Source: Candidatus Dormiibacterota bacterium
GTDB lineage: Bacteria > Chloroflexota > Dormibacteria > CF-121
NCBI GenBank assembly: GCA_035936995.1
Contig: DASYVR010000002.1
Coordinates: 5,311-69,310, forward strand
Direction of reading: 5' to 3'
DNA length: 64,000 nt
Part shown: positions 7,575 to 57,534 of the stretch, piece after piece
How positions within the stretch are numbered: position 1 is the first letter of the stretch
Layout: each line of letters begins with the position of its first letter
Notes under the pieces: model-generated
What the model saw: only the letters and a program-made list of their open reading frames with translations
What the model was told of the DNA's origin: nothing
Database searches by the model: none
Program-made: the position numbers and the translations under genes

Positions 7575-8750
7575 CTACACCAGTTCGGCGGTCTGGCGGG
7601 CAATCACGGCGTCTTCGCGCGCCTCGACCCGTAGGAGCGCAACCGCGCTGCCAGCTCGGCTGATCACGGCGTCGTTTCTGATGTCCGTGGCGGCGACCGC
7701 CCCGAGCCCGAGCGGCGCGAGCCGCCGGACGATCGCCGACCGCACCGACGCCGAGTGTTCCCCGATTCCGCCGGTGACGACCAGGCCGTCGAGGCGGGGC
7801 AGCGCCGTGGCCGCCGCCGCGATGCCGGCCGCGGCTCGGCTGACGAACATGTCGATGGCGAGCTGGGCGCGCTTGTTGCCCTCCCCGGCGGCCTTCTCGA
7901 GCTCCCGCATCCCGCCAGCCCGGCCGAATACGCCGACCAGCCCGGACTTGTGATCGAGCGCCTCCTCGAGCTCCCGCCAGCCAGTCCGCCGCGTCCGCAA
8001 CATATATAGAAGGATGCCGGGGTCGATCGAGCCCGAGCGGGTCCCCATCATCAGGCCTTCCATCGGCGTCAACCCCATCGAGGTGGCGACGGACCGTCCG
8101 TTGAGCACGGCCGTCACCGAGCAGCCGCTGCCGAGGTGGGCCACCACCAGCGCGAGCTGGTCGGCCGGCCGGGCCAGCAGTTCCGCCGCCCGATGCGTCG
8201 ACCACTCGACTGACAGCCCGTGGAAGCCGAAGCGCCGAACGCCGTACTCGCGATGCCAGCGCCGTGGCACTGGATAGAGGAACTGCTCCTCGCTGAGCGT
8301 CGCGTGGAAGGCGGTATCGAACGCCGCCACATGCGGAATCGCGGGCAGAGCCGAGCGGGCGGCCCGAATGGTGGCGGCGGCCACCCGGTTATGCAGCGGC
8401 GCGAACTCGGCCAATGCCTCGATGCCCTTCAAGACCCGGTCGTCGACCCGCACCGCCGACCGGAAGCGGGTGCCGCCATGCACGACCCGATGTCCGACCG
8501 CCTCAACCCCGAGCATTCGTCCCTCTCCCGCTGGGCGCCCTTGTACTTCCCTCCTCTGGGGGAGGGTCAGGGAGGGGGCGGTTATCCCCAATTTCGACAG
8601 CAGCGACCGGACGGTTCGATCCAGTCCTCTCCGCCGACTCGCATCCGCCCCAAGCGAGACCTCGTCTTTCGCGATTGCGGCGAGATCGGCGGTGTCGACG
8701 ATGCTGCCCTTCAGCGAGCTCGAGCCGACATTCAGGACGAGGACGCGCAC
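7575..8750 (-). CDS. ackA: Acetate kinase
   Basis: LVLNVGSSSLK N-terminal motif, AVGHRVVHGG, HLGSGCSV, TSMGLTPMEGLMMGTRSG, GGIGEH motifs; immediately downstream of phosphoketolase. Confidence 0.85.
   Translation of the reverse strand: MRVLVLNVGSSSLKGSIVDTADLAAIAKDEVSLGADASRRRGLDRTVRSLLSKLGITAPSLTLPQRREVQGRPAGEGRMLGVEAVGHRVVHGGTRFRSAVRVDDRVLKGIEALAEFAPLHNRVAAATIRAARSALPAIPHVAAFDTAFHATLSEEQFLYPVPRRWHREYGVRRFGFHGLSVEWSTHRAAELLARPADQLALVVAHLGSGCSVTAVLNGRSVATSMGLTPMEGLMMGTRSGSIDPGILLYMLRTRRTGWRELEEALDHKSGLVGVFGRAGGMRELEKAAGEGNKRAQLAIDMFVSRAAAGIAAAATALPRLDGLVVTGGIGEHSASVRSAIVRRLAPLGLGAVAATDIRNDAVISRAGSAVALLRVEAREDAVIARQTAELV
8547..8580 (+). repeat. G/C-rich hairpin repeat copy inside the ackA CDS (in-frame)
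   Basis: ttccctcctctgggggagggtcagggagggggcg; encodes ...PSLTLPQRREV... in a variable loop of AckA, between the N-terminal SSSLK motif and AVGHRVVHGG. Confidence 0.7.
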
Positions 8751-8756
8751 GCGACC

Positions 8757-8827
8757 CCTTTCCCTCCCCCTCTAGACGAGGGCACGACTCGTTTCCCTCC
8801 CCCTCTGGGGGAGGGCAGGGTGGGGGC
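8757..8827 (+). repeat. Two adjacent G/C-rich hairpin repeat copies (first degenerate) downstream of ackA
   Basis: tttccctccccctctagacgagggca... then tttccctccccctctgggggagggcagggtgggggcg. Confidence 0.9.
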
Positions 8828-8829
8828 GC

Positions 8830-11211
8830 TCAGTACGGCCAGGTCCAGTCGCGCACGTCCGGCACGTCCTCGCCGTGGTCCCGGGTGTACTGCCGGTGCC
8901 GCAGCCGCTCGTCCATCATGTGCTGGCGCACGTGCCCGGCGCGCGAGCCCAGCCCGGGAACCCGGTCGATGACGTCCATCACCAGGTGGAAGCGATCCAG
9001 GTCATTCAGCATCACCATGTCGAACGGCGTCGTCGTCGTGCCCTCCTCTTTGTATCCCCGGACGTGCAGATTGTTGTGGTTCTTCCGCCGGTAGGTCAGG
9101 CGATGGATCAGCCAGGGATAGCCGTGATAGGCGAAGATCACCGGCCGGTTGGTGGTGAAGAGCGCGTCGAACTCCGCGTCGGAGAGGCCGTGCGGATGCT
9201 CCGCCTCGGGTTGGAGCTTCATCAGGTCGACCACATTGACGACGCGCACCTTGAGATCGGGCAGGTGCTGACGGATCAGGTCGGCCGCGGCCAGCGTTTC
9301 CAGCGTCGGGATGTCGCCGGCGCACGCCATTACCACGTCCGGCTCGCCGGTGTCGTTGCTGGCCCAGTCCCAGATCCCGATCCCTCGGGTGCAATGGACG
9401 ATCGCGTCGTCCATCGGCAGGTAGTTGAGTGAGCGCTGCTTGCCGGCCACGATCACGTTCACGTACTGCTTGCTCTTCAGGCAATGGTCTGCAATGGAGA
9501 GCAGGCAGTTCGTATCGGGAGCCAGGTAGACGCGCACGACCTCGGGTTTCTTGTTCAGGACGACGTCGATGAAGCCCGGATCCTGGTGGGTGAAGCCGTT
9601 ATGGTCCTGGCGCCAGACATGCGAGCTCAGCAGGTAATTGAACGACGGGATCGGCCGGCGCCACGGAATCCGGTTCGTCACCTCGAGCCATTTCGCGTGC
9701 TGGTTGAACATCGCGTCGACGATATGGATGAACGCCTCGTAGCAGTTGAACAGGCCGTGCCGGCCGGTCAACACATAGCCCTCGAGCCAGCCCTGGCAGA
9801 GGTGCTCGCTCAGCACCTCCATCACCCGGCCGCCGGGCGCGAGGTGATCATCGATCGGCAGGGTTTCCGCCACCCAGGTCCGGTTGGTCACCTCGAACAC
9901 GGCGCTGAGGCGGTTCGATGCCGTTTCATCCGGCCCCATCAAACGGAAGTTCCGCGGATTGTGGGCGATGACGTCCCGCAGGAACTGTCCCAGGACCTTG
10001 GTTGCCTCGTCAAAGGTGGTCCCGGGCTTGTCGACCTTGACCGCGTACTCGCGGAAGTCCGGCAGCCGCAGGGCCTGGGTCAACTCGCCGCCATTCGCGT
10101 GCGGATTCGCGCTCATCCGCCGCGGGCCTCTTGGTGGCAGCTCCGCCAGCTCGGCAAGCAGCGTACCGTTGTCGTCGAACAGCTGCTCGGCATGGTAGCT
10201 GCGCAACCAGTCATCCAGGATCCGCAGGTGCTCCGGGTTCGTCATGTCGTCGACCGGCACCTGGTGCGACCGCCAGGTTCCCTCGACCGGCAAACCGTCA
10301 ACGACCTTCGGGCCGGTCCAGCCCTTCGGGGTGCGCATCACGATCATCGGCCACAGGGGACGGGTCGCCCGCTTCTTCCTGCGCGCCGCCCCCTGGATTT
10401 CCTCGATCTCGTCGAGCACGAGCTCGAGCAGCGCCGCCATTCGCTGGTGCATGTCCATCGGGTCATCACCGGCGATGATGTACGGGGTGTAGCCGTAGCC
10501 CTCGAGCAACTGGCGTAGCTCGCTCTCAGGGATTCGCGCCAACACCGTGGGGTTCGCGATCTTCCACCCATTCAAGTGAAGGATGGGAAGCACTACGCCG
10601 TCGGTAATCGGGTCGAGGAACTTGTTCGAGTGCCAGCTGGCTGCAAGCGGGCCGGTCTCGGCCTCGCCGTCCCCCACCACGCAGAAGACCTTGAGGTCCG
10701 GGTTGTCGAAGGCGGCGCCGTAGGCGTGGGTCAGCGCGTACCCCAGCTCGCCTCCCTCGTGGATCGATCCGGGCGTCTCCGGCGCATCGTGGCTCGGAAT
10801 CCCGCCTGGGAATGAGAATTGCCGGAAGAGCTTTTGCAAGCCGATAACATCTCGGCTGACCGCGGGATAGACCTCGCTGTAGGTTCCCTCGAGATAGGCG
10901 TTCGCGACCATCGCCGGCCCGCCGTGGCCCGGGCCGCAGATGAAGATGGCGTCGAGATCCCGCGCCTTGATCACCCGGTTCAGATGCGCGTACAAGAAGT
11001 TGAGACCAGGGGTCGTCCCCCAGTGACCAAGCAGGCGCGGCTTGATGTGCTTTACCTGGAGTGGCTCGCGTAACAGCGGGTTGTCCAGCAGGTAGATCTG
11101 GCCGACAGAAAGGTAGTTGGCCGAGCGCCAGTACGCGTGCAGCTTCTTGAGTTCGTCCGCGTTCAGCGGCCCTTCAGCGAGCGCGGCAGCCGGTCGCGGC
11201 TCAGTTTGCAT
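8830..11211 (-). CDS. xfp: Xylulose-5-phosphate/fructose-6-phosphate phosphoketolase
   Basis: EGGELGY and GDGEAETGP signatures; start trimmed to MQTEP... (ATG at 11211, GAGGGG RBS upstream) because phosphoketolases begin at the ...[22 protein letters not shown] region. Confidence 0.88.
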
Positions 11212-11279
11212 ACCCCTCACGATAACGTGACAAGCCCCTGTAGGGTTTTGCGCCGAGCAGCCAATAGACTGGCCTCGGG

Positions 11280-12344: not shown

Positions 12345-12370
12345 TTCACTCCCCATGCGGGGAATGCAAC

Positions 12371-12435
12371 TCCTTCCGCCCTTGCGGGGACTGAAGCTCC
12401 CTCCGCCCTTGCGGGGGAGGGTCGGGGTGGGGGGT
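12371..12435 (+). repeat. G/C-rich hairpin repeat, two tandem copies (one degenerate)
   Basis: ctccttccgcccttgcgggga... then ctccctccgcccttgcgggggagggtcggggtggggggt. Confidence 0.8.
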
Positions 12436-13796: not shown

Positions 13797-13848
13797 ATCC
13801 CCTCCCCACGATTTCCCTCCCCCTCACGAGGAGGGCAGGGTGGGGGCC
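13797..13848 (+). repeat. G/C-rich hairpin repeat copy
   Basis: cccctccccacgatttccctccccctcacgaggagggcagggtgggggcc. Confidence 0.85.
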
Positions 13849-17748: not shown

Positions 17749-17831
17749 GCAAACCCTCCCCCACCGGTCGCTCAACCGCCGTCCCTATTTGGAAAGCAAG
17801 CCTCACTAGAACCCCGCCGTTACATCTGCCG

Positions 17832-18701: not shown

Positions 18702-20018
18702 GTGATGGCCTCACTCGAGCGATGGATTCGCCGCCGGAGGAAGGTGGTTACCCTTGTAGCCATGGAAACGCGCCCACGCGCGTGGGGCTGGATCGGGCGG
18801 CTGCAGCCGCGCACGTTCGATCGGCTGCTGGTTGGCGTTCTCCTTTTGCTCGGGCTGATCAACACACTCCTCGATCTGCGATTCGCGGATCGAGGGCTGC
18901 GTCTCCCCTCCGGTGCTCCAGCCGGCACCGCCATCCTTATCTTTGTCGGCCTTGCCCTATTGCTGCTGCAAGTCGTTCCGCTGCTCTGGCGACGCAGCCA
19001 TCCGAGCTTCGTCCTCCTGCTGGTCGCCGGCGCCTTCGGCGCCAGGGTCTTGTTGGGTTTCAATCCGGGGATCGCCGGGTTCGGGCTCCTGGTCGCGATG
19101 TACAGCGTCGCCGCCTACGAGGTGGGGGTTCGACGGGTGTTTTTTCTGGTCGTCGCCGGCCTGGGTTTCGTGGCGGGCTTTGTCGCCTTCGTCATCACTG
19201 GCAACCCCCGGTCGTTCGCCATCACTGTCCCAAGTGTGTTCTTCGTTGCCGCCTGGCTGATTGGTGATTACCTTCGGACCCGGCGCGCCTACGTCGCCCA
19301 GCTGGAGGAACGGGCAGCCCGGCTCGAGCGTGAGCGGGACCAGGACCGACAGCTCGCGGCCGACGAGGAGCGGTCACGGATTGCGCGCGAGCTGCACGAC
19401 GTGGTCGCCCACGATGTCAGCGTGATCGCGATCCAGGCCGGCGCGGCGCGAGCGGTGCAGGCCACCAGGCCCGAGGCAGCGGCGCAGGCCCTCGGCCTGA
19501 TCGAAACGACAGCGCGGGAGACCCTCATCGAGTTGAATCGGCTGCTCGGGGTGCTGCGCGGAAGCAATGGCGCCTCTCCCGATCGCAGCCCGCAGCCCGG
19601 GATCGGGCAACTGGCCGGTCTCGTCGAGGAACTGCGCGCCGCCGGGCTCGAGGTCGACGCGCGGGTTGACGGCGAACCGCGGTCACTTCCGCCGGCGCTC
19701 GACCTGTCCGCCTACCGGATCGTGCAGGAGGCGACGACCAACGTCCTCAAACACGCCGGCGCCCGACGCGTTGACATCCGGGTGCACTACACGGAGACGA
19801 TGCTCGCACTCGATGTCCGCGATGACGGCGCCGGCGACGGTAGCGACTCGGCCTCGTCGTCGGGACATGGGCTGATCGGGATGCGTGAGCGGGTCGCCGT
19901 CTTCGGCGGCGAGCTACGGGCGGGGCGCGATCCCGCCGGCGGATTCTCGGTGCACGCGCGTCTCCCCATCGACAGCACTCACTCCCCCCTTCGGGGGGAG
20001 GGTCGGGGTGGGGGGTGA
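18702..20018 (+). CDS. Sensor histidine kinase, HisKA_3 (DesK/LiaS) type, multi-TM N-terminus
   Basis: RIARELHDVVAHDVSVIAIQAGAA H-box, HATPase_c G-boxes; the last ~12 codons are derived from a G-rich repeat copy. Confidence 0.8.
   Translation: MMASLERWIRRRRKVVTLVAMETRPRAWGWIGRLQPRTFDRLLVGVLLLLGLINTLLDLRFADRGLRLPSGAPAGTAILIFVGLALLLLQVVPLLWRRSHPSFVLLLVAGAFGARVLLGFNPGIAGFGLLVAMYSVAAYEVGVRRVFFLVVAGLGFVAGFVAFVITGNPRSFAITVPSVFFVAAWLIGDYLRTRRAYVAQLEERAARLERERDQDRQLAADEERSRIARELHDVVAHDVSVIAIQAGAARAVQATRPEAAAQALGLIETTARETLIELNRLLGVLRGSNGASPDRSPQPGIGQLAGLVEELRAAGLEVDARVDGEPRSLPPALDLSAYRIVQEATTNVLKHAGARRVDIRVHYTETMLALDVRDDGAGDGSDSASSSGHGLIGMRERVAVFGGELRAGRDPAGGFSVHARLPIDSTHSPLRGEGRGGG
19982..20016 (+). 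repeat. G/C-rich hairpin repeat copy overlapping the 3' end of the kinase gene
   Basis: actccccccttcggggggagggtcggggtggggggtga. Confidence 0.85.
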
Positions 20019-22567: not shown

Positions 22568-22593
22568 CCTTCCCCTTCTCCCCGATCGATGCT

Positions 22594-22646
22594 TCCCTCC
22601 CCTATTGCGGGGGAGGGTTCATTTTTCTGGGGAGAGTCGGGGTGGC
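22594..22646 (+). repeat. G/C-rich hairpin repeat copy
   Basis: cttccctcccctattgcgggggagggttcatttttctggggagagtcggggtgg. Confidence 0.75.
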
Positions 22647-27084: not shown

Positions 27085-27123
27085 TTCCCTCCCGCCTTGC
27101 AGGGGAGGGTCGCGGTGGGGGGT
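27085..27123 (+). repeat. G/C-rich hairpin repeat copy
   Basis: attccctcccgccttgcaggggagggtcgcggtggggggtg. Confidence 0.85.
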
Positions 27124-27156: not shown

Positions 27157-28209
27157 GTGACGCGCGCTGCTCGCCCACACGCGACTGGGCAATCCGGGAG
27201 CTGGCGCCCAGGCGACGCCCAACTCGGATGGATCATCGAGAATCGGGTCGATGAGGCCTACATCCTCTCCTGGCCCGGCCAGCTCGAGACCTATGTGCCG
27301 CTGCACGACACCGGCGGCTACGATCGGGCCCGGGCCCCGCTCGGGAGCTATGACTTCCGGCTGGATCAGATCAAGGGCACGGCGAGCATTCATCCCGGAA
27401 ACCTCGTCGAGATCTCGTTCAACACGCCGGCCCTGCACCCGCGTCGGCATCTGGATTTCACGGTCGTTCGCTTCGACCTGAAGATCCGCGATTTGGTCGA
27501 CCCGGCGTGGCTCTTTCCCAGTACCAGGCTCGCCGAAGTGTGCACTCAGGACGCTTCCGTTGGACGCCCCGACCACTGGGTGTTTGCCGCGAATCCCTCG
27601 GGCCTCGCCCGGGACCGTGCGGCGAAGTACCAGGTGGCGCTTCGGGAGCTGGCCGCGGCTCGAGGCTGGTCGATCCTGCCTCCGAGGCTTCCTCAGCTAT
27701 CGGCCAACCCCATCGAGACGGGAACCTTCTTCGAGCGGCATTTCGACGCCGCCTTCCTGCAGGCGACCTCGGGCGATGAGGTCTTGATGGCGACCACTCC
27801 GGACAACTTCAGCCGCCACCGGCTCGCTTTTTCGAAGATGAGCGGACACTGGGCGTCTATCGCCATCCACGGATCGGCGGTAAGCAACGGCACCCAATTG
27901 ATCCAGGCCAACATCCACGCCGCGACCTTCTTTCCGCACCCTCGTCATTACATCCTGGTCCAGCACTACGACCGTCTGCGTGCCGAGTGGTACCCATGGA
28001 GCTGGTTCATCAATTCCACCGACTTCGCGAAACTGGCCACGGGCAAGGGCGCCTACCTGCTCTTTACCACTACGCTGAATCCCCAGCGGGTAAATCGCTG
28101 GACGCCATACCGAATCCCCACCAGTGACGCGGCCAAGGCCTACCAGTCCGCGCTCCACGGGCGCACTTCCCTGCCCCGGAGGGGGAGGGTCAGGGAGGGG
28201 GCCGCCTAA
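27157..28209 (+). CDS. Hypothetical protein (start uncertain); C-terminal ~12 codons derived from a repeat copy
   Basis: 350 aa ORF with good GC3 bias, no recognisable motifs. Confidence 0.4.
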   Translation: MTRAARPHATGQSGSWRPGDAQLGWIIENRVDEAYILSWPGQLETYVPLHDTGGYDRARAPLGSYDFRLDQIKGTASIHPGNLVEISFNTPALHPRRHLDFTVVRFDLKIRDLVDPAWLFPSTRLAEVCTQDASVGRPDHWVFAANPSGLARDRAAKYQVALRELAAARGWSILPPRLPQLSANPIETGTFFERHFDAAFLQATSGDEVLMATTPDNFSRHRLAFSKMSGHWASIAIHGSAVSNGTQLIQANIHAATFFPHPRHYILVQHYDRLRAEWYPWSWFINSTDFAKLATGKGAYLLFTTTLNPQRVNRWTPYRIPTSDAAKAYQSALHGRTSLPRRGRVREGAA

Positions 28210-28225
28210 CGGTCAGGGTGGGGGC
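28167..28225 (+). repeat. G/C-rich hairpin repeat copy with duplicated G-rich tail
   Basis: cttccctgccccggagggggagggtcagggagggggccgcctaacggtcagggtgggggc. Confidence 0.85.
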
Positions 28226-28885: not shown

Positions 28886-29152
28886 ATGACCGCGCACCCC
28901 TTCTCGTTGTAACGCCGCCCGGGCACGCAACGCCGACCACTCAGGCCCGGTGGGCTGCGGCGCCCCCGGCACCCCGCTTACTGCTGCTTCCTTCCGGACC
29001 TGACAGGGTTCACGGAACCAGGTCGCGCAGGACCAGGCCATCAACGCAGTCGCACGAAACACGACTCCAGACAGCGCACCCCTCAAAGGGGAATTCGACC
29101 CCGCTAAAGCGGATTGCGGGTACAGGGCACCGCTAGCTCCCCGTCTAGCGCG
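28886..29152 (-). ncRNA. ffs: Signal recognition particle RNA, long (Bacillus-type, Alu-domain-containing) form
   Basis: Minus strand has the domain IV core CCTGTCAGGTCCGGAAGGAAGCAGCAG. The 5' region GACGGGGAGCTAGCGGTGCCCTGTACCCGCAATCCGCTTTAGCGGGGTCGAATTCCCC closely matches the B. subtilis scRNA Alu domain. Ends approximate. Confidence 0.85.
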
Positions 29153-29161
29153 ATCGCGTCT

Positions 29162-39417: not shown

Positions 39418-39453
39418 TTCCCTCCCGCTGTGGGGGAGGGCAGGGTGGGGGCT
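39418..39453 (+). repeat. G/C-rich hairpin repeat copy
   Basis: gttccctcccgctgtgggggagggcagggtgggggc. Confidence 0.9.
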
Positions 39454-40005
39454 CTATTTCACCAGGCCTGGCAGCAGCGAGGGCAAGATCGGAACCGGCA
39501 GAATGCTGGTCAGCGGCAGCGGTAGCAGGCTGGGGGCCGCCGGCGGCATGGCCACTGGGGGCAGTATCGGCGGGCTGGGGGTCGGCGTTGGCGTCGGCAA
39601 CGGTAACGGCGGCGGCCTCGGCAATGGTAACGGCGTCGGCGTCGGCAACGGTAACCGCTTCGGCGTCGGCAACGATAGCGGCGTTGGCGTCGGCAGTGGA
39701 ACCGCCGTTGGCGTCGGCAGCACCGGATCAGCCGCGACAGGGTTCGGCATTCCCGAAAGCAACGATGCACCGGGTCCGCCACCGGCATCCTGCTGGGCGT
39801 CCTGGAACACCCGGAGCGAAAGTGGCGCGGGTCGCTGGGCCGAGTCGCCCGCGTAGCTCGCCAGGCTGAGCCCGTGGACGTTGACCCCGATCGCGAGTAG
39901 GCCGGGGAGATTCGACACGAGGAGCGCCGTCAGCCAGAACAGCAATGCGAACGCCGGGAGCGAGGCGAGGATGGCGAGGTAACGCAGCGGACGGATGCGG
40001 TTCAT
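39454..40005 (-). CDS. Pro/Thr-rich membrane-anchored protein
   Basis: N-terminal TM helices followed by PTPTPLPLP repeats encoded by a tandem DNA repeat. Confidence 0.5.
   Translation of the reverse strand: MNRIRPLRYLAILASLPAFALLFWLTALLVSNLPGLLAIGVNVHGLSLASYAGDSAQRPAPLSLRVFQDAQQDAGGGPGASLLSGMPNPVAADPVLPTPTAVPLPTPTPLSLPTPKRLPLPTPTPLPLPRPPPLPLPTPTPTPSPPILPPVAMPPAAPSLLPLPLTSILPVPILPSLLPGLVK
39585..39725. repeat. Imperfect tandem repeat (18-24 nt units, ggcgtcggcaacggtaacggc...)
   Basis: Direct reading of the sequence; encodes the P/T/L-rich segment of the 39454 gene. Confidence 0.65.
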
Positions 40006-41702
40006 GCCGCCTCAGGCTGCGCGCTCGTCGCGCCAACCTTGCCCATCCGTCGCACCAGCGCCTCGACCGCCCCTTGCCGCGCCAGGAACGCGGTCACGAC
40101 GTCAGGATCGAACTGCAGGCCGGCCTCGATCCGGATGGCCGCGGTCGCTGCCTCGTAGCTCAGCCCCTCGCGATAGGGCCGGTCCGAGGTCATAGCATCG
40201 AAGACGTCGGCCACCGCCAGGATCCGTACCGGCAGCGGGATCGCGGTCCCGGCCAACCCGGTCGGATAGCCGGCGCCGTCCCAGCGCTCGTGGTGATAAA
40301 GTACGCCGGGCAAGCTGGGTTGCAAGAAGCGAAGGCCCTTGAGCATGTCGTAGCCGATCCGCGGATGCTCGCGCATCTCGCCCGCCTCGGCCGCGGTCAG
40401 TGGACTCGGTTTGCGCAGCACCTTGTCCTCGACGCCGATCTTCCCGATGTCGTGCAGCAGCGCCGCCCGGCGCAGCGCCTCGCGATCCTTTGCCGTCAGC
40501 TGCATCGCGTCGGCGATTTCGACGCTGATCGCCGCCACCCGGGCCGAGTGGCCGAACGTGGATGCGTCGCGGGCGTCGATCGCCCGAGCAAGCGCCTCCA
40601 TGCTGGCGAACGTCGTCTCCTCCAGGGCGCCGGTCTTCTCCTCGAGGCTGGCGGTCACGTCGTTGAAGGTCCGGGCGAGGTAGCCGATTTCGTCCCGTGA
40701 GACGACTGCGGCCCGATGCCGCAGGTCGCCCGCGGAAACGGCCCGCATCGACCGCACCAGCAGGTCGATCGGCCGGGTCAGCCGCGAGGCGGTGACCGTT
40801 CCCACCAGCAGCGTGAGTAAGGCGGCGGCGGTGAAGACCAGGGTGAGGACCAGCCGGAGCTGTGCCACCAGGCTCAACAATGGGTCGGCGTTGGCCTGGA
40901 CGGCGAGGTAGCCAAGCTGGCTCCCGCGCATGATCCAGGTGCTAAACAGGGCGCCGTAGGCGTGGTCGCCGCGAGTGTCGTCCATCCGAACCGCCTTAAG
41001 CGTCGTGACCTGCCGCCGGATCGCGTCGGTCGCCAGCGGCGCACTCGGGAGGCCGCTGGCGAGCGGCGTGCCCGAAATGTCGTAAAGGGCAGATCCCGGG
41101 ACGGCCGCGGCGATCTCGGCGAGGGACTCGCCGACCAGGACCGCTCCGACGATTCGTCCCCCTGCGACGTGGACCGGTCCAGCCCAATAGAGAGCGGGCT
41201 GGGCTCCCGTGGGAGAGAGGAAAATTCGTCGCTCGCCCTGCGCGTCCGTTTCACCCGCAAGGACCTTGACCACGGCTGGCTCGGCGGTGAACGCGCCGGC
41301 GTCGGTGACGCTGGCCGAGCCCAGCCCGTCGCGTGTGCTCTCGACGCGAAGCACGTCCTCGCCACGAATATCGAGAACGACCAGCTGGATGCTGGAGACG
41401 GTCGGCTTGAGATTGGCGGCGATCGGCGTCAGCAGCCGGGTCAGGCCGCCGATGTCGCCGGAGGCGAGCGCCTCCGGCACGCCCACCGTGTCGGTCGCCT
41501 GCCGCAGGTCGGCCATCCGGGCGGCTTCGAGTTGCGCCATCGACTGGTTGGCGACCAGGCTGCTCCTGAGCAGGTTGGCGTCGAACACCGCGTCCGCGGC
41601 GTCGGTCAGCCGCGCCGTCGCCACGCCGGTGCCGATCACGCCCACGAAGATGAGCAGCACGGCAAACGGCAGAATGATCTTGTAACGGATGGAAAGCCGC
41701 AT
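40002..41702 (-). CDS. Membrane HAMP-HD-GYP phosphodiesterase, paralog of 37631..39397
   Basis: Same architecture and motifs (HSARVAAISVEI...LHDIGKIG...HHERWDGAGYP); start trimmed to MRLSIRYK (ATG at 41702). Confidence 0.85.
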   Translation of the reverse strand: MRLSIRYKIILPFAVLLIFVGVIGTGVATARLTDAADAVFDANLLRSSLVANQSMAQLEAARMADLRQATDTVGVPEALASGDIGGLTRLLTPIAANLKPTVSSIQLVVLDIRGEDVLRVESTRDGLGSASVTDAGAFTAEPAVVKVLAGETDAQGERRIFLSPTGAQPALYWAGPVHVAGGRIVGAVLVGESLAEIAAAVPGSALYDISGTPLASGLPSAPLATDAIRRQVTTLKAVRMDDTRGDHAYGALFSTWIMRGSQLGYLAVQANADPLLSLVAQLRLVLTLVFTAAALLTLLVGTVTASRLTRPIDLLVRSMRAVSAGDLRHRAAVVSRDEIGYLARTFNDVTASLEEKTGALEETTFASMEALARAIDARDASTFGHSARVAAISVEIADAMQLTAKDREALRRAALLHDIGKIGVEDKVLRKPSPLTAAEAGEMREHPRIGYDMLKGLRFLQPSLPGVLYHHERWDGAGYPTGLAGTAIPLPVRILAVADVFDAMTSDRPYREGLSYEAATAAIRIEAGLQFDPDVVTAFLARQGAVEALVRRMGKVGATSAQPEAA

Positions 41703-41832
41703 GGGGCTGACCCGATGATCTTGCGACTGGGTTGCGACGATCGTTGCATTCGCGTGATGGGCGCCTTCTTGGGCCATTCGGATTCGGGGGAATGCCGACC
41801 GGCCGATGCCTGCTGGGCCGTTTAGCTGATTC

Positions 41833-41899
41833 ATCCCTCCCCCTTGGTGGGAAGGTCGACATTCTTCCCTCCCCCTCTGGGGGCGGGTCAGGGTGGGGG
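41833..41899 (+). repeat. Two adjacent G/C-rich hairpin repeat copies (first degenerate)
   Basis: atccctcccccttggtgggaagg ... ttccctccccctctgggggcgggtcagggtggggg. Confidence 0.85.
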
Positions 41900-43679: not shown

Positions 43680-44300
43680 TCAGCCGGTCAGCGCCGCGCC
43701 GACGGTGACCACGCCGAACCCCAGGAGCGCGACTCCCGAGACGATGCCGATGCCCCGGATAACGGCTGGCGTCAGCCGCTCGCGCAGTCGGCTCGCGACG
43801 CCGGTCAGAACAACCCACCAGCTCAGCGACCCGAGCAAGACGCCAATAACCAGCGCGAGCGCCGTTATCCAACCCGCCGCGACATGGGTGCCCAACCCGG
43901 CGAATACAGCGGTGAACGACAGGATCGTCGGCGGGTTACCGAGGGTCAACGCCACCATTGACCCGGAGGCGCCGGCCAGCCCGCTTTTGTTTCCCTCCCG
44001 CTTTGGGGGAGGATCAGGGTGGGGGACTTTGAGCGTTCGAAGCCCAATAAGGGCGATCGCGATGCCACCCACCAGGCCGATCCAACGGCGCTCCGCGATC
44101 AGAACGCCGGTGACCGCCGCAACGCCGAAGGCCGCCAGCGCCGCATAGGTGGCGTCGCCGGTGGCGACGCCGAGACCGGAGCTCAGACCGCTAGGCCAGC
44201 CGCGGGCGAGCGTGCGGCGGAGGACCAGGAAGAAGATCGGGCCCGGTGAGGCCGCGATCGGGAACCCGACGAGGAATCCGAGGACAACCGCCCTGGCCAT
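43680..44300 (-). CDS. LysE/RhtB family amino-acid exporter with an in-frame repeat insertion
   Basis: N-terminal FLVGFPIAASPGPIFF LysE signature; codons KVPHPDPPPKREGN are encoded by repeat copy 43990..44025. Confidence 0.7.
   Translation of the reverse strand: MARAVVLGFLVGFPIAASPGPIFFLVLRRTLARGWPSGLSSGLGVATGDATYAALAAFGVAAVTGVLIAERRWIGLVGGIAIALIGLRTLKVPHPDPPPKREGNKSGLAGASGSMVALTLGNPPTILSFTAVFAGLGTHVAAGWITALALVIGVLLGSLSWWVVLTGVASRLRERLTPAVIRGIGIVSGVALLGFGVVTVGAALTG
43990..44025 (+). repeat. G/C-rich hairpin repeat copy inside the LysE CDS
   Basis: tttccctcccgctttgggggaggatcagggtggggg. Confidence 0.85.
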
Positions 44301-44387: not shown

Positions 44388-44650
44388 CGACCCATCGTTA
44401 CGGTTGATAACCCGCCAGTGTGACCCAACGAGCCCTTACCGCCGCCCAGTCCAACCGTTTCCAGAAGGACCTTCACTCCGTACTAATCGAGTCCTTGCGG
44501 GCCCGGGGTTCGGGAGCCCACCGATGTCGTTTCCGTCATCGGCTGGCTTTCTGACAGGTCGCGGGCGTAAGCGTAAAGGCCGTCCAGATCTCCCGCAACT
44601 CCAAACTGCGGTTCGCAAACGCGCGTGCGCTCGGGCGCTGGATCTCTGTT
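44388..44650. ncRNA. Candidate structured noncoding element, copy A (paralog of 50450..50930)
   Basis: No ORF. Shares ordered conserved boxes with copy B (gttacggtt, cccagtcca, ccttgcgg, ctggctttctgacaggtcgc, cccgcaac, cgctcg). Its hairpin ccgatg-tcgtttccgt-catcgg becomes tagag-tcgtttcctt-ctcta in copy B, a compensatory change. Confidence 0.35.
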
Positions 44651-44688
44651 TCCCTCCCCCCTTGCTGGGGAGGGTCAGCGTGGGGGGT
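44649..44688 (+). repeat. G/C-rich hairpin repeat copy overlapping the aminotransferase 3' end
   Basis: gtttccctccccccttgctggggagggtcagcgtggggggt. Confidence 0.85.
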
Positions 44689-46028: not shown

Positions 46029-46068
46029 TTTCCCTCCCCCTTTACCCAGATCCACCGAAGGGGGAGGC
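46029..46068 (+). repeat. G/C-rich hairpin repeat variant with a large loop and no G-tail
   Basis: tttccctccccctttacccagatccaccgaagggggagg. Confidence 0.6.
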
Positions 46069-46099
46069 CTTAGCCGGCTAAAGAGAATGCGAAAGGTGC

Positions 46100-47600
46100 C
46101 CCGCTGAACTGAGACAATGGCGGCGTTCAACCAAGCCAACGTCTTAGCAGAGGAGCACCTAACGGGTGACATCATCGCATACGTCCCAGCACCCTCGCAT
46201 CGTCTTTGATGACCGCCGAGTGATCGCCAACGCCGGCCTTCTCCTGCCCGCTCGACTGGCGCAGCGCCTGGGACTCCACGAGTTGCTGGACCGGCACATC
46301 GACCTCGGCCCGGCGGTGGGCCACGCCCGTGTCGGGGAGAAGGCGCTGACGCTGGTTGCGTCGCTTCTGGCGGGCGGTGATTGCATTGATGACGCGGCCG
46401 CGCTGCGCGCGCCGGGCCGTGAAGCCGTGCTCGGTCATCGAGTGGCAGCGCCCTCCACCCTGGGTACGTTTCTGCGCTCGTTCAGCTGGGGTCACCTCAA
46501 GCAGTTCGACCACGTGAGTGAACTGGCGCTCGCCCGCGCGTGGCAAGCGGGAGCGGGCCCCGGTCGGCAGGGCCTCACGGTCGATTTCGACTCGACCATC
46601 TGTGAGACCTATGGGGTCAAGAAACAGGGGGCGCAATTCACCTACGCGAAGGTGTGGGGCTATCAACCGTTCCTGGCCATTACCGCGGAGAGCGGCGAGG
46701 TGGTGCACAGTCGGCTGCGCGGAGGGCGCGCGGCCCCGGCGCGAGGCGCGGGACATTTCGTCGGAGAAGCGCTGGCGCGCGTGCGCCGCGCCGCTTCGCG
46801 GGCGCACTGGTGATTCGTGCTGACTCCGGCTTCTTCACGGAGGACGTGGTGCGGGCCAGCCTGCGGTACGACGCCGGCTTTTCCGTTACCGCCCGCATGT
46901 ATCCGCGGTTGAACCGGTGCATCGCCGAGATTCATCCTGAGGCCTGGCAGCCGATCAGGAATTGGGTGGGCGGCACGGCGGAGGTCGCGGAAATCGCCTA
47001 CACCGCCTTTGCCAACACGCATCACGGCAAGCGCGCGCGCCCGCTGGTGGTGCGCTTGATCGTCCGCCGCGTGCTGCCGGATTTCGCGCAGCTCAGCCTG
47101 CCGGGTCTCGGCTATCGCTATCACGCATTCATCACCAACCGCCCGGGCACGGCCTTGGCGCTCGAAGTCGACCATCGTCAGCACGCGATTGTCGAAAACC
47201 GCATCCGAGACCTCAAGCACGGACTTGGGCTCAACCATCTGCCCTCGGGCCGGTTTGCGGCCAACGCGGTCTGGCTGGCACTCAACGTGCTGGCCCACAA
47301 TTTGCTGCGCTGGCTCGATCGACTGGCACTGGCCACCTCGGGTTGGACCGCCAAGACCTTCCGCTATCGCTTTTTCGCCGTCCCTGGCCGGCTGGTCCGA
47401 TCCGGCCGCCAACTCTGGTTGCGCCTTCCGGCTCAATGGCCCTGGCGATCGCAATTCGAAGGCGTGCTCGAGCGCTTGGGCCACTCGCCACCTCAGCCAG
47501 CCTGACGGCGCTTCGCGCTCCACGTCCCTGATCGCGGTCCGAGCATCCCCTCGACGGGCGGTCATCCCGTTCAAGACGACTCGGCAACCCACTTGCTGCC
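46100..47600 (+). mobile_element. IS1380-family insertion sequence (ends approximate)
   Basis: Transposase with N-terminal FDDRRVIANAGLLLP, ADSGFF, and ENRIRDLKHGLGLNHLPSGRFAANAVWLALNVLAHNLL DDE-region motifs; terminal inverted repeats not resolved by eye. Confidence 0.65.
46166..47505 (+). pseudogene. IS1380-family transposase, split by a -1/+1 frameshift near 46790
   Basis: ORFs 46166..46813 and 46654..47505 are consecutive parts of one transposase in different frames; the join is ...ARVRRAAS | GALVIRADSGFF. Confidence 0.65.
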
Positions 47601-47668
47601 CGCCTGGCCCCCTGAAGGCTGACTCCTATCGAGCCACGCCGCTCAAGCGGTCGACTCATACCCACTCA

Positions 47669-47738
47669 GCCCTCCCTCCGCCCCCTTCTTGCCGCGCCAT
47701 CGGTGGATTTGGGCTTTAGGGGAGGGCAGGGAGGGGAT
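47669..47738 (+). repeat. G/C-rich hairpin repeat variant with a ~40 nt loop
   Basis: agccctccctccgccccc...ggggagggcagggaggggatc. Confidence 0.6.
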
Positions 47739-53924: not shown

Positions 53925-53939
53925 TGAAGCACCAGTTCG

Positions 53940-55841: not shown

Positions 55842-55876
55842 CGCTTCGCGCAATCCGAGCAGTCGATGCTGGTCTC

Positions 55877-56332
55877 ATGCGAAGCACGAAATCAGGCCAG
55901 TCGACGCTGCTGGTGGCTGCGGCCATCTCGCTCGTGTTCGCCATCGGCGTGGCGGGGCTGCAGGCGGTTGGCTTCGGTCTTCGCTCGTTGCAGCTGCACG
56001 AGGCCGCCGTGGCAGGAGCTCGCACCATGGCGCACGGGCTGCCCGTTGGGGATCCGGGTGCCGTCCCCTGCTGGGAGGCGAGCGACGGCCTGCTGCGCCC
56101 CGCCGCCTACTCTGAAACCGAGGTCTGCCGCGCCGTCGTCTCCAACATGGGCGGTCTTGATCCCCGCCAGGCATCGGTCCGGGTCAGGCAGGCCGGCATG
56201 GATCTGGCTGGTAACCCAACACGATTCACGGTGACCATCAGCTACCACGAGCCCGTCGGCTCACCGCTGCTGCGCGTGTTCGTTGGCGAGAGCTTCGTAT
56301 CGACCAGCGACGCCACGTATTCGATCTACTAA
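55877..56332 (+). CDS. TadE-like protein
   Basis: QSTLLVAAAISLVFAIGVAG N-terminal segment. Confidence 0.45.
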   Translation: MRSTKSGQSTLLVAAAISLVFAIGVAGLQAVGFGLRSLQLHEAAVAGARTMAHGLPVGDPGAVPCWEASDGLLRPAAYSETEVCRAVVSNMGGLDPRQASVRVRQAGMDLAGNPTRFTVTISYHEPVGSPLLRVFVGESFVSTSDATYSIY

Positions 56333-56344
56333 ACTCACCTCGCC

Positions 56345-57100
56345 ATGGGGGAGTTGCAGTACCACATCCGCTGCAAGCCGGGCGACGTCGGCGACGTCGT
56401 CCTTCTCCCTGGCGATCCCGGTCGGGTGGAATCGATCGCAAAACTGCTCGAAAGACCTCGGCTGATTGCCCGCAACCGCGAGTACACCACCTACACCGGC
56501 GAGCTCGATGGCCGCGCGGTCTCGGTCTGCTCAACCGGGATTGGCTCACCGTCGACGGCGATCGCCGTCGAGGAGCTGGCCGCCATCGGTGCGACGACGT
56601 TTATTCGTGTGGGCACCACCGGCTCGATCCAAAGCGAGGTTCGTTTCTCAGACCTGGTGATCGCGACGGGGGCCGTGCGCGACGAGGGTACGACCCCCGG
56701 CTACGTGCCAATCAGCTATCCCGCCGTGGCCGACTTTGAACTCGTCTCCGCCATGGTCGCCGCCGCGCGTGGGGCGAACCTCCGCGCCCATGTCGGGATC
56801 GTGCGCAGCCACGATTCGCTCTACACGGATCTGCACGCCGCGATGCAACCCCGGCGCGAGGAGCTGGAGCAGGCGCTGCGAGTCTGGCAACGGTCGCAGG
56901 TGCTCTGCAACGACATGGAGACCTCGGCGATCTTCGTGATCGCTGCGGTGCGGCGCCTGCGCGGGGGATCGGTCCTGACTGTCGTCAACGATCCTGGCGA
57001 AGACGCGATCGACCCGGCGCGGGTCGCGGCGCTCGACCTGACGCCGATGTTCAGGGTGGCCCTGGGCGCCGTCCACCAGCTACCGCCGCTCAAGGCCTGA
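56345..57100 (+). CDS. Nucleoside phosphorylase, PNP/UDP family 1 (Udp/DeoD-like)
   Basis: VLLPGDPGRV and VCSTGIGSPS...FIRVGTTG motifs. Confidence 0.8.
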   Translation: MGELQYHIRCKPGDVGDVVLLPGDPGRVESIAKLLERPRLIARNREYTTYTGELDGRAVSVCSTGIGSPSTAIAVEELAAIGATTFIRVGTTGSIQSEVRFSDLVIATGAVRDEGTTPGYVPISYPAVADFELVSAMVAAARGANLRAHVGIVRSHDSLYTDLHAAMQPRREELEQALRVWQRSQVLCNDMETSAIFVIAAVRRLRGGSVLTVVNDPGEDAIDPARVAALDLTPMFRVALGAVHQLPPLKA

Positions 57101-57102
57101 CC

Positions 57103-57534
57103 ATGGACGTTGGCGAGACCGTCAGCGTCCGGTCCGCAGATGCATGGCGACGCTGGCTGGCCAGGCATCATCAAGACAAGAAAGAAATCTGGCTGATTTA
57201 TTACAAGAAGACATCGCGCAAGTCGGGCATCAGCTACGAAGACTCTGTCCAGGAGGCCCTGGCCTACGGCTGGATCGACGGCCAGACGAAGTCGATCGAC
57301 GACGCGACCTACGCGGGCCGGTTCACGCCACGCAAGCCAAACAGCAACTGGTCGGCCTCGAACATCGCGCGCATCAAGAAGCTCCTCGCCGAGGGCCGCA
57401 TGGCTGAGCCCGGCCTGGCCCTGCTCCCGCAAAGCCTGCGGCCTACCGGGAAGAATTCCCTCCCCCTGCGAGGGAGGGCCAGGACTGGCGATCCCCTCCC
57501 CGTCCGGGGGAGGGCCAGGGAGGGAGCTTCATGA
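57103..57534 (+). CDS. YdeI/OmpD-associated family protein; C-terminal tail read through repeat copies
   Basis: WRRWLARHH...IWLIYYKK...AYGWIDGQ pattern; the last ~25 codons are encoded by the repeat pair 57466..57527. Confidence 0.55.
   Translation: MDVGETVSVRSADAWRRWLARHHQDKKEIWLIYYKKTSRKSGISYEDSVQEALAYGWIDGQTKSIDDATYAGRFTPRKPNSNWSASNIARIKKLLAEGRMAEPGLALLPQSLRPTGKNSLPLRGRARTGDPLPVRGRAREGAS
57466..57527 (+). repeat. Two adjacent G/C-rich hairpin repeat copies
   Basis: ttccctccccctgcgagggagggccagg and cccctccccgtccgggggagggccagggaggg. Confidence 0.8.

What the first reader, a model, noticed from the sequence alone, without database searches (positions are those of the whole stretch)
8547..57527. 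Abundant G/C-rich hairpin-plus-G-tract element family with complete strand bias
At least 16 loci, about 20 copies, share TTCCCTCCCCC-(4-6 nt loop)-GGGGGAGGG-(T)CAGGGTGGGGG. The first part is a perfect 9-bp G/C hairpin. The second part, together with the GGGGGAGGG arm, gives four G-runs and could form a G-quadruplex. Every copy I found has the G-rich strand on the + strand, although flanking genes run in both directions. Chance would give 16 same-orientation loci with probability about 2^-15. Copies sit mainly at 3' ends of genes, between convergent genes, or in doublets. None has a U-tract, so they are not classical intrinsic terminators. The element is free of stop codons in essentially all six frames. 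This looks like a REP/MITE-like family whose orientation is coupled to something strand-specific, such as replication direction, a leading-strand G4, or a protein binding site.
Basis: seen in the sequence. Interest (0 to 1): 0.75.

Follow-up and report, generated by a model that had tools for sequence, protein, structure and literature searches.

The report
Strand-polarised triplex-forming DNA repeat family
The window carries about 15 copies of a short G/C-rich repeat, a high-GC relative of the known E. coli BoxC/PIT "intrastrand triplex" elements. Unlike the E. coli elements, in this soil-bacterium lineage (Dormibacteraeota) almost all copies point the same way along the chromosome, whatever the direction of the neighbouring genes.

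Summary
I find 15 sites, about 20 repeat units, with the consensus TTT-CCCTCCCCC-(loop 3-7)-GGGGGAGGG-(T)CA-GGG(T/A)GGGGG. All are on the + strand. The purine half matches 14:0 (+:-) against about 0 expected by chance.

It is not a new kind of element. It is a high-GC variant of the BoxC/PIT/TM_ECO class-II purine-motif intrastrand-triplex repeats (Holder 2015). Kaplan (2016) read the same E. coli family as a G4-hairpin switch. Block 3 is the antiparallel mirror of block 2. The position opposite the single A:T pair is always T or A, as triplex rules require.

The motif occurs in many phyla and in viral contigs. The window's lineage is Dormibacteraeota. There the family is very dense, about one copy per 4 kb. 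It is present or absent at matching sites in relatives, and it forms head-to-tail arrays.

What is new is the polarity:
- In about 130 related contigs, neighbouring sites share orientation 68:5.
- 45 of 50 multi-site contigs are uniform, against 21 expected.
- Other phyla show 4:4 with many inverted pairs, and E. coli K-12 shows 8:5 by replichore.
- The G-rich strand is co-oriented with about 60% of genes, and this does not decay with distance.

This points to a replication-linked polarity. It is unproven, because GC/AT skew, KOPS-like octamers and tRNA genes gave no support and no complete genome was available.

The parts
8547..8578 (+). Copy with a truncated left arm (TTCCCTCC-TCT-GGGGGAGGG-TCA-GGGAGGGGG). 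It lies inside the acetate kinase coding sequence (7575-8750, -) and is translated as ...PSLTLPQRREV...
8759..8790 (+). Degenerate hairpin-only unit (block 1 at 8762-8770). It is the upstream partner of a head-to-tail doublet.
8792..8827 (+). Canonical perfect copy TTTCCCTCCCCC-TCT-GGGGGAGGG-CA-GGGTGGGGGC (9/9 pairs, 9/9 triads). It lies between the acetate kinase and phosphoketolase genes, both on the - strand.
12370..12434 (+). Doublet: a degenerate unit (12370-12390) plus a full copy (block 1 12399-12407, block 2 12413-12421, block 3 ending at 12433). It lies downstream of a + strand phosphoesterase gene.
13798..13846 (+). Copy (block 1 13815-13823, block 3 13838-13846) preceded by an extra C-block (13800-13808). 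It lies between two + strand genes.
19980..20014 (+). Copy at the junction of the histidine kinase ORF end and the response regulator start (GTG at 20015).
22593..22645 (+). Copy whose third block is displaced by an 11-nt T-rich insert. It lies between convergent genes.
27085..27122 (+). Copy (3 mismatches) in a divergent intergenic region.
28167..28224 (+). Copy (block 1 CCCTGCCCC; third block GGGAGGGGG) plus a second spare third block, GGTCAGGGTGGGGG, at 28211-28224. It overlaps the 3' end of ORF 27157-28209.
39418..39452 (+). Copy between convergent genes. The matching site in relative L126 is empty.
41835..41899 (+). Doublet: a degenerate hairpin unit (41835-41860) plus a full copy (41867-41899). 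It lies between two - strand genes. The site is also filled in L126 and empty in L130.
43990..44025 (+). Copy inside the LysE-family ORF (43680-44300, -). A copy sits at the same place inside the LysE ORF of L126 and L127.
44649..44687 (+). Copy at the 3' end of the aminotransferase gene (-). Here relatives L126, L127 and L130 carry a methyltransferase gene (about 845 bp in L126) that the window lacks. The copy is also present in L371.
46029..46044 (+). Left half (TTT + block 1 + loop TTTA) of a copy split by an IS insertion.
46045..47713 (+). IS1380-family insertion sequence. The DDE_Tnp_1_4 transposase is split into ORFs 46166-46813 and 46810-47505. The 14-bp inverted ends are CCCAGATCCACCGA and CCCAAATCCACCGA, and the target duplication is (C)TTTA. 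It is inserted in the loop of the element. It is not part of the family, but it interrupts one copy.
47714..47737 (+). Right half (loop CTTTA + blocks 2 and 3, GGGGAGGG-CA-GGGAGGGGA) of the split copy.
57456..57526 (+). Head-to-tail doublet: a decayed unit (57458-57490) plus a copy (block 1 57494-57502, block 2 57506-57514, block 3 57518-57526). It lies at the 3' end of ORF 57103-57534. The site is empty in L130 and filled in L127.

Best explanation
The copies are non-coding, non-autonomous repeats of the BoxC/PIT/TM class.

How they fold (shown as sequence capacity, not as structure in the cell):
- On single-stranded DNA the C-rich block (CCCTCCCCC) pairs with the purine block (GGGGGAGGG) to give a 9-bp hairpin.
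- The third block (GGG[T/A]GGGGG) then folds back antiparallel onto the purine block. This gives 8 G*G:C triads and 1 T/A*A:T triad, a class-II purine-motif intrastrand triplex.
- The same purine half can alternatively form a three-tetrad G-quadruplex.

How they behave (shown): they are REP-like genomic repeats. They are very dense in Dormibacteraeota, are gained and lost at matching sites in relatives, form head-to-tail arrays, and tolerate or attract other events (an IS in the loop, a gene-sized deletion next to a copy).

The polarity (shown): in this lineage neighbouring copies share orientation irrespective of local transcription.

The cause (inferred): I infer that orientation is set by replication direction. 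The foldable C-G-G strand is kept on the strand that carries most genes. That is the leading-strand sequence, and therefore the lagging-strand template. [quoted passage not shown] Which replication strand carries the G-rich strand, and whether the filter is selection or biased insertion, is not established.
For: Identity with the known family:
- Blocks 1 and 2 fit Holder's pattern CCCTCNCCC N3-6 GGGNGAGGG. Block 3 differs from the E. coli form at exactly the position that compensates for the T->C / A->G change in blocks 1 and 2.
- The position in block 3 opposite the A:T pair is T or A in 13 of 13 window copies. It differs, T versus A, between the matching copies in the window and in L371.
- The E. 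coli relative folds as a triplex by NMR, and purine-motif triplexes do not form in RNA.

Polarity:
- Window: 14:0.
- Relatives L126, L127 and L128: 3, 4 and 5 copies, all on one strand.
- Neighbouring sites agree 68:5, and 45 of 50 multi-site contigs are uniform against 21.3 expected.
- Only 9 of 205 sites are inverted or mixed, against 52 of 118 in other phyla.

Independence from transcription:
- Site pairs lying in opposite gene contexts keep the same orientation in 5 of 5 cases.

Long-range link with gene strand:
- 61% of coding bases are co-oriented with the G-rich strand, in 59 versus 29 contigs (p = 0.002).
- The fraction stays at 0.59-0.66 out to more than 6 kb from the nearest copy.

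Gain and loss:
- Filled versus empty matching sites are seen among relatives.

Precedent:
- The orientation of foldable attC sites relative to replication is constrained in chromosomal integrons.
Against: - No replichore map was available.
- Third-position GC and AT skews do not follow element orientation. Pooled R is -0.007 to -0.014 and per-contig signs are 23:19 and 40:26. The weak trend points the opposite way to the gene-strand inference.
- No 8-mer is polar relative to the element.
- tRNA genes split 4:4.
- No dnaA or dif-like site was found at the few orientation switches.
- E. coli TM_ECO shows no replichore bias, 8:5. The same family in other phyla shows no local agreement in orientation, 4:4. 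The polarity is therefore not intrinsic to the element.
- In vivo triplex formation was not detected in E. coli.
- The related contigs were all chosen because they carry one copy, and the genes were called with my own simple caller.
Confidence: 0.5

Rival explanations
1. The copies are miniature mobile elements moved in trans by a single-strand-DNA (HUH/Y1) transposase of the RAYT or IS200/IS605 type. This enzyme would recognise the hairpin plus the 3' G-block. Insertion into the lagging-strand template would fix the orientation mechanically.
For: - The layout is a hairpin plus a conserved single-stranded flank.
- Copies are present or absent as discrete units of about 35-45 nt at matching sites.
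- A strong orientation bias is what lagging-strand-template targeting predicts (abstract; the orientation bias of IS608/ISDra2 is from my own knowledge).
- The G-rich strand is co-oriented with most genes.
Against: - There is no GTAG/GTGG tetranucleotide and inverted REPIN-type doublets are rare, 9 of 205 sites.
- The unit has one hairpin, not two ends.
The power of this test is low.
- The E. coli relatives were not found associated with mobile elements.
- Nearly identical blocks occur across many phyla where orientation is unbiased.
Confidence: 0.2
2. The copies act as a G-quadruplex/hairpin conformational switch that regulates neighbouring genes, as Kaplan et al. proposed for the E. coli motifs.
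For: - Nine + strand copies meet the G3+N1-7 rule with short loops.
- With ViennaRNA's G4 energy terms the G4 is predicted more stable than the hairpin.
- CD evidence exists for a hairpin/G4 transition in E. coli HPG2.
Against: - Orientation ignores gene direction.
- Copies sit upstream of, downstream of, between and inside genes.
- For the E. coli relative, NMR showed 18 imino signals, interpreted as a triplex and not a G4.
- PIT elements showed no promoter or terminator activity.
- The mirror register and the T/A-only rule are not needed for a G4.
Confidence: 0.1
3. The copies are a host-used polar signal in the style of KOPS or Chi. A translocase (FtsK) or a recombination nuclease would read the G-rich strand, so selection keeps it on the leading strand.
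For: - The purine half contains GGGGAGGG and, in the 'CA' variants, GGGCAGGG. Both fit the E. coli KOPS consensus GGGNAGGG (the KOPS consensus is from my own knowledge).
- Orientation is polar and co-oriented with most genes.
Against: - Isolated GGGNAGGG octamers outside the elements show no skew relative to element orientation, 73:76.
- Block 1 carries the reverse-complement octamer, so every copy also presents the motif in the opposite direction.
- No other polar 8-mer was found.
- A 35-nt three-block structure is not needed for an 8-mer signal.
Confidence: 0.08
4. The local agreement in orientation has nothing to do with replication. It would reflect regional spread (slippage, segmental duplication, gene conversion) or another domain-scale property of the chromosome.
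For: - Head-to-tail arrays and doublets show that local duplication occurs.
- No compositional skew accompanies the polarity.
- Five contigs show orientation switches with no recognisable ori or ter feature.
Against: - Sites several kb apart with different loops and flanks share orientation, across 49 kb in the window and in unrelated regions such as L128.
- The link with gene strand is long-range and of the size typical for leading-strand gene bias.
Confidence: 0.12

Closest known systems
BoxC / PIT elements / TM_ECO intrastrand triplex motif (Bachellier 1990s; Hoyne & Maher 2000, 2002; Holder et al. 2015, PMC4666352)
   Same: - Same three-block layout on one strand: CCCTCNCCC, loop, GGGNGAGGG, short loop, G-rich mirror block.
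- 9-nt stems, with loops more variable than stems.
- Mostly intergenic and multi-copy.
- Associated with indels and rearrangements.
- No terminator-type T-tract.
   Different: - High-GC sequence variant, with only one A:T pair (GGGGGAGGG / GGGTGGGGG).
- Loop 2 is often 2 nt (CA).
- Found outside Proteobacteria, here in Dormibacteraeota, at about 1 copy per 4 kb. E. coli K-12 has 23 copies per genome.
- Head-to-tail doublets and arrays instead of inverted pairs.
- Strongly polar orientation: 68:5 for neighbouring sites, against no bias in E. coli (13+/10-, or 8:5 by replichore).
- Some copies lie inside coding sequences.
E. coli HPG1/HPG2 'G-quadruplex-hairpin-duplex switch' (Kaplan et al. 2016, PMC5100583)
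   Same: From its description this appears to be the same E. coli motif family: hairpin-plus-G4-prone motifs that flank ORFs, often as opposite-strand pairs. It has four G-tracts and a competing hairpin, as here.
   Different: That reading stresses a G4 and gene regulation. Here orientation is independent of genes and opposite-strand pairs are rare.
REP/BIME elements and REPINs with RAYT (TnpA_REP) transposases
   Same: Short, G/C-rich, hairpin-forming, mostly intergenic repeats present in hundreds of copies. They are targets for IS insertion.
   Different: No GTAG/GTGG guide tetranucleotide, no inverted-pair (REPIN) organisation, and no RAYT found. The extra third block and the strand polarity are not REP features.
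IS200/IS605 single-strand transposons, which target the lagging-strand template
   Same: A hairpin on one active strand. An orientation bias tied to fork direction is the mechanism that most directly predicts what is seen here.
   Different: Those elements have two different hairpin ends, carry tnpA and/or tnpB, and insert 3' of a fixed tetra- or pentanucleotide. The unit here is a single element of about 35 nt with no gene.
Integron attC sites in sedentary chromosomal integrons (PMC5371416)
   Same: Single-strand folding sites whose orientation relative to replication is constrained because folding differs between the leading- and lagging-strand templates.
   Different: attC sites are clustered in one array, are recombined by IntI, and have no G-rich third block. 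There the foldable strand is kept on the leading-strand template.
KOPS (FtsK-orienting polar sequences) and Chi
   Same: G-rich and polar along the chromosome. The element contains GGGNAGGG-type octamers.
   Different: Those are bare 8-mers whose skew holds for all copies. Here isolated octamers are unskewed (73:76) and each element also contains the reverse octamer.

Membership tests
BoxC/PIT/TM_ECO class-II purine-motif intrastrand triplex elements | Three consecutive blocks on one strand in the order pyrimidine block, purine block, reverse-Hoogsteen G-rich block, each about 9 nt. | tested here: met
   14 window sites show blocks 2 and 3, and 13 of them also have block 1.
BoxC/PIT/TM_ECO class-II purine-motif intrastrand triplex elements | Blocks 1 and 2 are Watson-Crick complementary, with one mismatch allowed. 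| tested here: met
   8 copies have at least 8/9 pairs; predicted DNA hairpin energy is -10.7 to -13.1 kcal/mol.
BoxC/PIT/TM_ECO class-II purine-motif intrastrand triplex elements | Block 3 is the antiparallel mirror of block 2 and gives G*G:C and T*A:T or A*A:T triads. | tested here: met
   5 copies have 9/9 triads, 2 have 8/9 and 1 has 7/9. The position opposite the A:T pair is T or A in 13 of 13 window copies.
BoxC/PIT/TM_ECO class-II purine-motif intrastrand triplex elements | Literal consensus CCCTCNCCC N3-6 GGGNGAGGG N3 GGGNGAGGG. | tested here: not met
   Blocks 1 and 2 fit the consensus. Block 3 is GGGTGGGGG, with G instead of A at position 6, which is the compensating change. Loop 2 is 2 nt in the 'CA' variants and loop 1 reaches 7 nt. 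It is therefore a sequence variant, within the one mismatch that the authors allow.
BoxC/PIT/TM_ECO class-II purine-motif intrastrand triplex elements | Always intergenic, with no strand bias and frequent inverted pairs (as described for E. coli). | tested here: not met
   Two copies lie inside coding sequences. All window copies are on one strand. Only 9 of 205 sites are mixed or inverted.
BoxC/PIT/TM_ECO class-II purine-motif intrastrand triplex elements | The isolated strand folds into a triplex in vitro (CD, NMR). | not testable with these tools
   Shown only for the E. coli sequences.
REP / REPIN with RAYT | A conserved 5' GTAG/GTGG tetranucleotide next to an imperfect palindrome. | tested here: not met
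   The 5' flank is TT(T), and no GTAG is present. The feature itself is from my own knowledge and from the paper.
REP / REPIN with RAYT | Inverted doublets, and a RAYT gene flanked by REPs. | tested here: inconclusive
   Inverted pairs are rare. No RAYT hit was found in about 2 Mb, but a single-copy gene could easily be missed.
IS200/IS605-derived miniature elements | Two different subterminal hairpins (left and right ends), and insertion 3' of a fixed short target without duplication. | tested here: not met
   There is one hairpin per unit. Flanks in the filled/empty comparisons are too diverged to define a target.
KOPS-type polar octamers | The octamer itself is strongly skewed to one replication strand throughout the chromosome. 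| tested here: not met
   GGGNAGGG outside the elements splits 73:76 relative to element orientation.
Canonical G-quadruplex motif (G3+ N1-7, four tracts) | Four runs of at least 3 G separated by loops of 1-7 nt. | tested here: met
   9 + strand copies qualify. Folding into a G4 was not tested.
Intrinsic (Rho-independent) terminator | A G/C hairpin followed by a U-tract. | tested here: not met
   Block 3 (G-rich) follows the hairpin on the + strand, and AAA follows it on the - strand.
Any Rfam RNA family | A match at the family's gathering score. | tested here: not met
   the only hit in the window is the large SRP RNA.

The most novel reading that the evidence does not exclude
In Dormibacteraeota the triplex/G4-forming repeats are a true chromosome-architecture element. 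Hundreds to about a thousand copies would all point from origin to terminus. [quoted passage not shown] That would be the first structure-based, rather than sequence-read, polar signal in a bacterial chromosome, and a functional explanation for the long-unexplained BoxC/PIT family.
Probability: 0.15. Interest if true: 0.85.

Novelty: new variant of a known kind. Interest (0 to 1): 0.5.

Why it matters
BoxC/PIT/TM elements have been known since the 1990s. They fold into very stable triplexes in vitro, yet no function and no rule for their placement has been found in E. coli.

This lineage differs in two ways. The same element is about 40 times denser by copy spacing (about 1 per 4 kb, against 23 copies per genome in E. 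coli K-12). Its orientation is also almost uniform over tens of kb. That gives a concrete handle: orientation can be tested against replication direction in a closed genome.

If the link holds, a non-B-DNA repeat would be shown to be filtered or used by the replication fork in bacteria.

There is also a practical point. Such repeats may break short-read assemblies of this uncultured phylum, and they run through ORF calls because they lack stop codons.

Tried and rejected
- **Chance or low complexity:** rejected by shuffles.
- **Known RNA family:** none.
- **Terminator:** no T-tract.
- **Orientation set by transcription:** rejected. Co-orientation with adjacent genes is only about 60-67%, whereas neighbouring sites agree 93% of the time. 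Opposite gene contexts keep the same element orientation.
- **Replication link via GC skew:**
  - The window looked C-rich on the + strand (R = -0.055).
  - This is within gene-to-gene noise. Pooled and per-contig values in 120 related contigs are about 0.
  - 94 cross-phylum loci show no link either.
- **Polar 8-mers:** none found.
- **KOPS octamers:** unskewed.
- **tRNA orientation:** 4:4, uninformative.
- **dnaA (tblastn) and dif-like sites in all fetched loci:** none.
- **Y1 transposases by tblastn:** none.
- **E. coli K-12 Table 1 re-read by replichore:** 8 leading, 5 lagging, so no bias.
- **Finding the source genome:** only 2-5 kb Logan contigs of SRR12277191/199/200 carry identical proteins. 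A genome-wide tabulation was therefore impossible.
- **Triple covariation across taxa:** could not be tested without bias, because my collection patterns fixed blocks 2 and 3.


Full report
**1. Observation**

The window has 65% G+C. GGGGGAGGG occurs 18 times against 1.5 expected.

The longer purine half of the motif was searched with up to 3 mismatches. GGGGGAGGG-TCA-GGGTGGGGG gives 9 matches and GGGGGAGGG-CA-GGGTGGGGG gives 5, with one overlap. Every match is on the + strand. Shuffles give 0.00 and 0.02.

An alignment of the copies and a block-by-block listing give this consensus: TT(T)-CCCTCCCCC-loop(3-7)-GGGGGAGGG-(T)CA/TCG-GGG(T/A)GGGGG-C.

I count 15 independent sites between 8547 and 57526. 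Five of them are head-to-tail doublets whose upstream unit has decayed to a partial hairpin.

- Only one copy is a perfect 9-bp hairpin.
- The 'copies' at 46032 and 47718 are the two halves of one copy (section 5).
- The lone CCCTCCCCC hits at 17754 and 48861 are probably chance.
- Site 13800-13846 has a weak extra block on the other side.

No T-tract follows the hairpins. Rfam finds only the SRP RNA in the window.

**2. What the element is**

The third block is not just 'more G'. GGGTGGGGG is the antiparallel mirror of GGGGGAGGG, with T (or A) opposite the single A:T pair.

That is the layout of a class-II purine-motif intrastrand triplex: pyrimidine block, purine block, reverse-Hoogsteen block. 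A scan for this structure (at least 8/9 pairs, at least 7/9 triads) finds 8 copies on + and none on -.

This family is already in the literature:
- Holder et al. 2015 (PMC4666352) describe 'TM_ECO', 5'-CCCTCNCCC N3-6 GGGNGAGGG N3 GGGNGAGGG. It was formerly called BoxC and then PIT elements (Hoyne & Maher).
- They found 3610 copies in 262 proteobacterial genomes.
- In vitro the motif forms a very stable triplex by CD and NMR. No in vivo triplex footprint was seen.
- It has no promoter or terminator activity.
- It is associated with local genome variability.
- Kaplan et al. 2016 read what appear to be the same E. coli motifs as a G4-hairpin-duplex switch.

The window's element is the high-GC variant of this family. 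Relative to E. coli (CCCTCTCCC / GGGAGAGGG / GGGTGAGGG), one triad column has changed on all three blocks at once: T->C, A->G, A->G.

The position opposite the remaining A:T pair is T or A in all 13 window copies. It differs, A versus T, between the matching copies in the window and in a 92%-identical relative. Both bases are allowed by the triplex rule.

A G4 remains possible. Nine copies meet the G4 rule, and with ViennaRNA's G4 terms the G4 is predicted to compete with the hairpin. The predicted DNA hairpin energy is -10.7 to -13.1 kcal/mol.

**3. Distribution**

Nearly all carry the left arm as well. By record title the hits include:
- Alpha-, Beta-, Gamma- and Deltaproteobacteria
- Chloroflexota
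- Planctomycetota
- Acidobacteriota
- Nitrospirota
- Gemmatimonadota
- Armatimonadota
- Bacteroidota
- a CPR genome

The motif is also present in IMG/VR viral contigs. The family therefore reaches well beyond the Proteobacteria reported earlier.

The window itself belongs to Candidatus Dormibacteraeota:
- Its aminotransferase is 79-94% identical to metagenomic proteins. The named ones are 'Candidatus Dormibacter'.
- Contigs in the same gene order were recovered.
- Proteins identical to the window's are on record only in 2-5 kb Logan contigs.

**4. The strand bias is real and typical of the lineage**

Relatives:
- L126, L127 and L128 carry 3, 4 and 5 copies, all on one strand. L128 is a different genomic region.
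- L130 carries none.

A metagenome scan with the window's exact variant returned 120 soil contigs totalling 794 kb. About ten of them overlap the window's region at 64-86% nucleotide identity (seven of them at 77-86%), which confirms the lineage.

In this set plus the window and the relatives:
- Neighbouring sites share orientation 68:5.
- 45 of 50 contigs with at least 2 sites are uniform, against 21.3 expected.
- Only 9 of 205 sites are mixed.

Controls:
- Loci from other phyla give 4:4, with 52 of 118 sites mixed or inverted.
- Viral contigs give 36:13.
- E. coli K-12 singletons, re-read by replichore from Holder's Table 1, give 8 leading and 5 lagging.

**5. What the orientation follows**

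It does not follow local transcription. Copies occur in every gene context. Pairs of sites lying in opposite gene contexts keep the same orientation in 5 of 5 cases.

There is a long-range link with gene strand:
- 61% of coding bases are co-oriented with the G-rich strand.
- This holds in 59 contigs against 29 (p = 0.002).
- The fraction does not fall with distance from the nearest copy. It is 0.59-0.66 out to more than 6 kb.

That is the size and behaviour expected of leading-strand gene bias. It suggests that the G-rich strand has the leading-strand sequence, and so lies on the lagging-strand template.

Composition gives no support:
- The window's apparent strand effect is within noise.
- Pooled GC3 and AT3 effects are about -0.01, and per-contig signs are mixed.
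- No polar 8-mer was found.
- Isolated GGGNAGGG octamers split 73:76.
- tRNA genes split 4:4.
- No dnaA or dif was found in the fetched DNA.

**6. Dynamics**

Matching sites are filled in some relatives and empty in others.

One copy sits where relatives L126, L127 and L130 carry a methyltransferase gene, about 845 bp in L126.

Loops differ between matching copies while the three blocks are kept.

Head-to-tail arrays of up to 8 units occur.

An IS1380-family element (46045-47713) sits in the loop of one copy, with a (C)TTTA duplication. The 92%-identical relative has that copy intact.

Two copies lie inside coding sequences:
- In the acetate kinase gene, with no net length change against solved homologues.
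- In the LysE-family gene, at the same place in two relatives.

No Y1 transposase was detected, but the power of that test is low.

**7. Interpretation**

Shown:
- The element's identity as a BoxC/PIT/TM-type repeat variant.
- Its density.
- Its gain and loss among relatives.
- Its lineage-specific polarity, which is independent of transcription.

Inferred:
- The polarity reflects replication direction.
- My preferred mechanism is an orientation filter. Copies that put the triplex/G4-prone strand on the leading-strand template are lost, and those on the lagging-strand template are tolerated. The idea that blocks on the leading-strand template are more harmful is from my own knowledge of G4 instability studies in yeast.

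Rivals:
- Insertion by a single-strand transposase into the lagging-strand template.
- A G4 regulatory switch.
- A KOPS- or Chi-like host signal.
- Regional spread unrelated to replication.

**8. Verdict**

This is a known kind of element in a new, polar, very dense variant. It is moderately interesting. The decisive test is a whole-genome orientation map.

Noticed in passing
window 46045-47713: An IS1380-family insertion sequence. The DDE_Tnp_1_4 transposase is split into two ORFs (46166-46813 and 46810-47505), which is a frameshift or a pseudogene. It has 14-bp inverted ends and a 4-5 bp (C)TTTA target duplication. It is inserted exactly in the loop of a repeat copy. It is absent from the 92%-identical relative L371, which has the copy intact.
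   Followed up: yes
window 8547-8578 (in CDS 7575-8750, -) and 43990-44025 (in CDS 43680-44300, -): Repeat copies lie inside coding sequences and are read through in frame. In acetate kinase they encode residues about 58-68, with no net length change against solved homologues. In a LysE-family transporter the copy is at the same place in relatives L126 and L127. Because the repeat lacks stop codons it also extends several ORF calls at 3' ends (19980, 28169, 57494).
   Followed up: partly
window 44620-44673 versus L126 11187-12032: Relatives L126, L127 and L130 have a UbiE-type methyltransferase gene directly after the aminotransferase. The window has only about 50 nt there, containing a repeat copy. 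This is a gene-sized deletion or replacement next to an element.
   Followed up: partly
window 28890-29153 (-): A bacterial large (Alu-domain-containing) SRP RNA, 172 bits. It lies in an element-free stretch of the window (28.2-39.4 kb).
   Followed up: no
window 7575-11220 (-): Phosphoketolase (XFP) and acetate kinase genes lie in tandem, separated by a repeat doublet.
   Followed up: no
window 37631-39397 (+) and 40002-41834 (-): Two paralogous HAMP + HD-GYP (HD_5) signalling proteins face each other, with a small ORF and a repeat copy between them. The arrangement is conserved in L126.
   Followed up: no
L221 2953-3330; L234 9174-9437; L128 5717-5845: Head-to-tail arrays of 3-8 repeat units with 7-15 nt spacers. 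In L221, units with two different loops (GTTTAC and TCT) alternate, so the array grew by duplication of a two-unit block.
   Followed up: partly
L150 4348-11044; L165, L191, L200 (pairs 200-320 nt apart); L226: These are the only contigs where orientation switches. L150 is tail-to-tail (+ + | - -) and the genes also converge there. Three contigs have close head-to-head pairs in divergent promoter regions. No dnaA or dif-like site was found at any of them.
   Followed up: partly
L251-L370 (IMG/VR viral contigs): The same motif, mostly with its left arm, is common in viral contigs with 50-73% G+C. Neighbouring sites agree in orientation 36:13 and many sites are inverted pairs. Whether these are true phage genomes or host flanks of prophages was not examined.
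   Followed up: partly
L001-L005 (Logan contigs of SRR12277191/199/200): The only public contigs encoding proteins identical to the window's are 2-5 kb long. This may reflect short-read assemblies breaking at these dense repeats. I did not check it.
   Followed up: no
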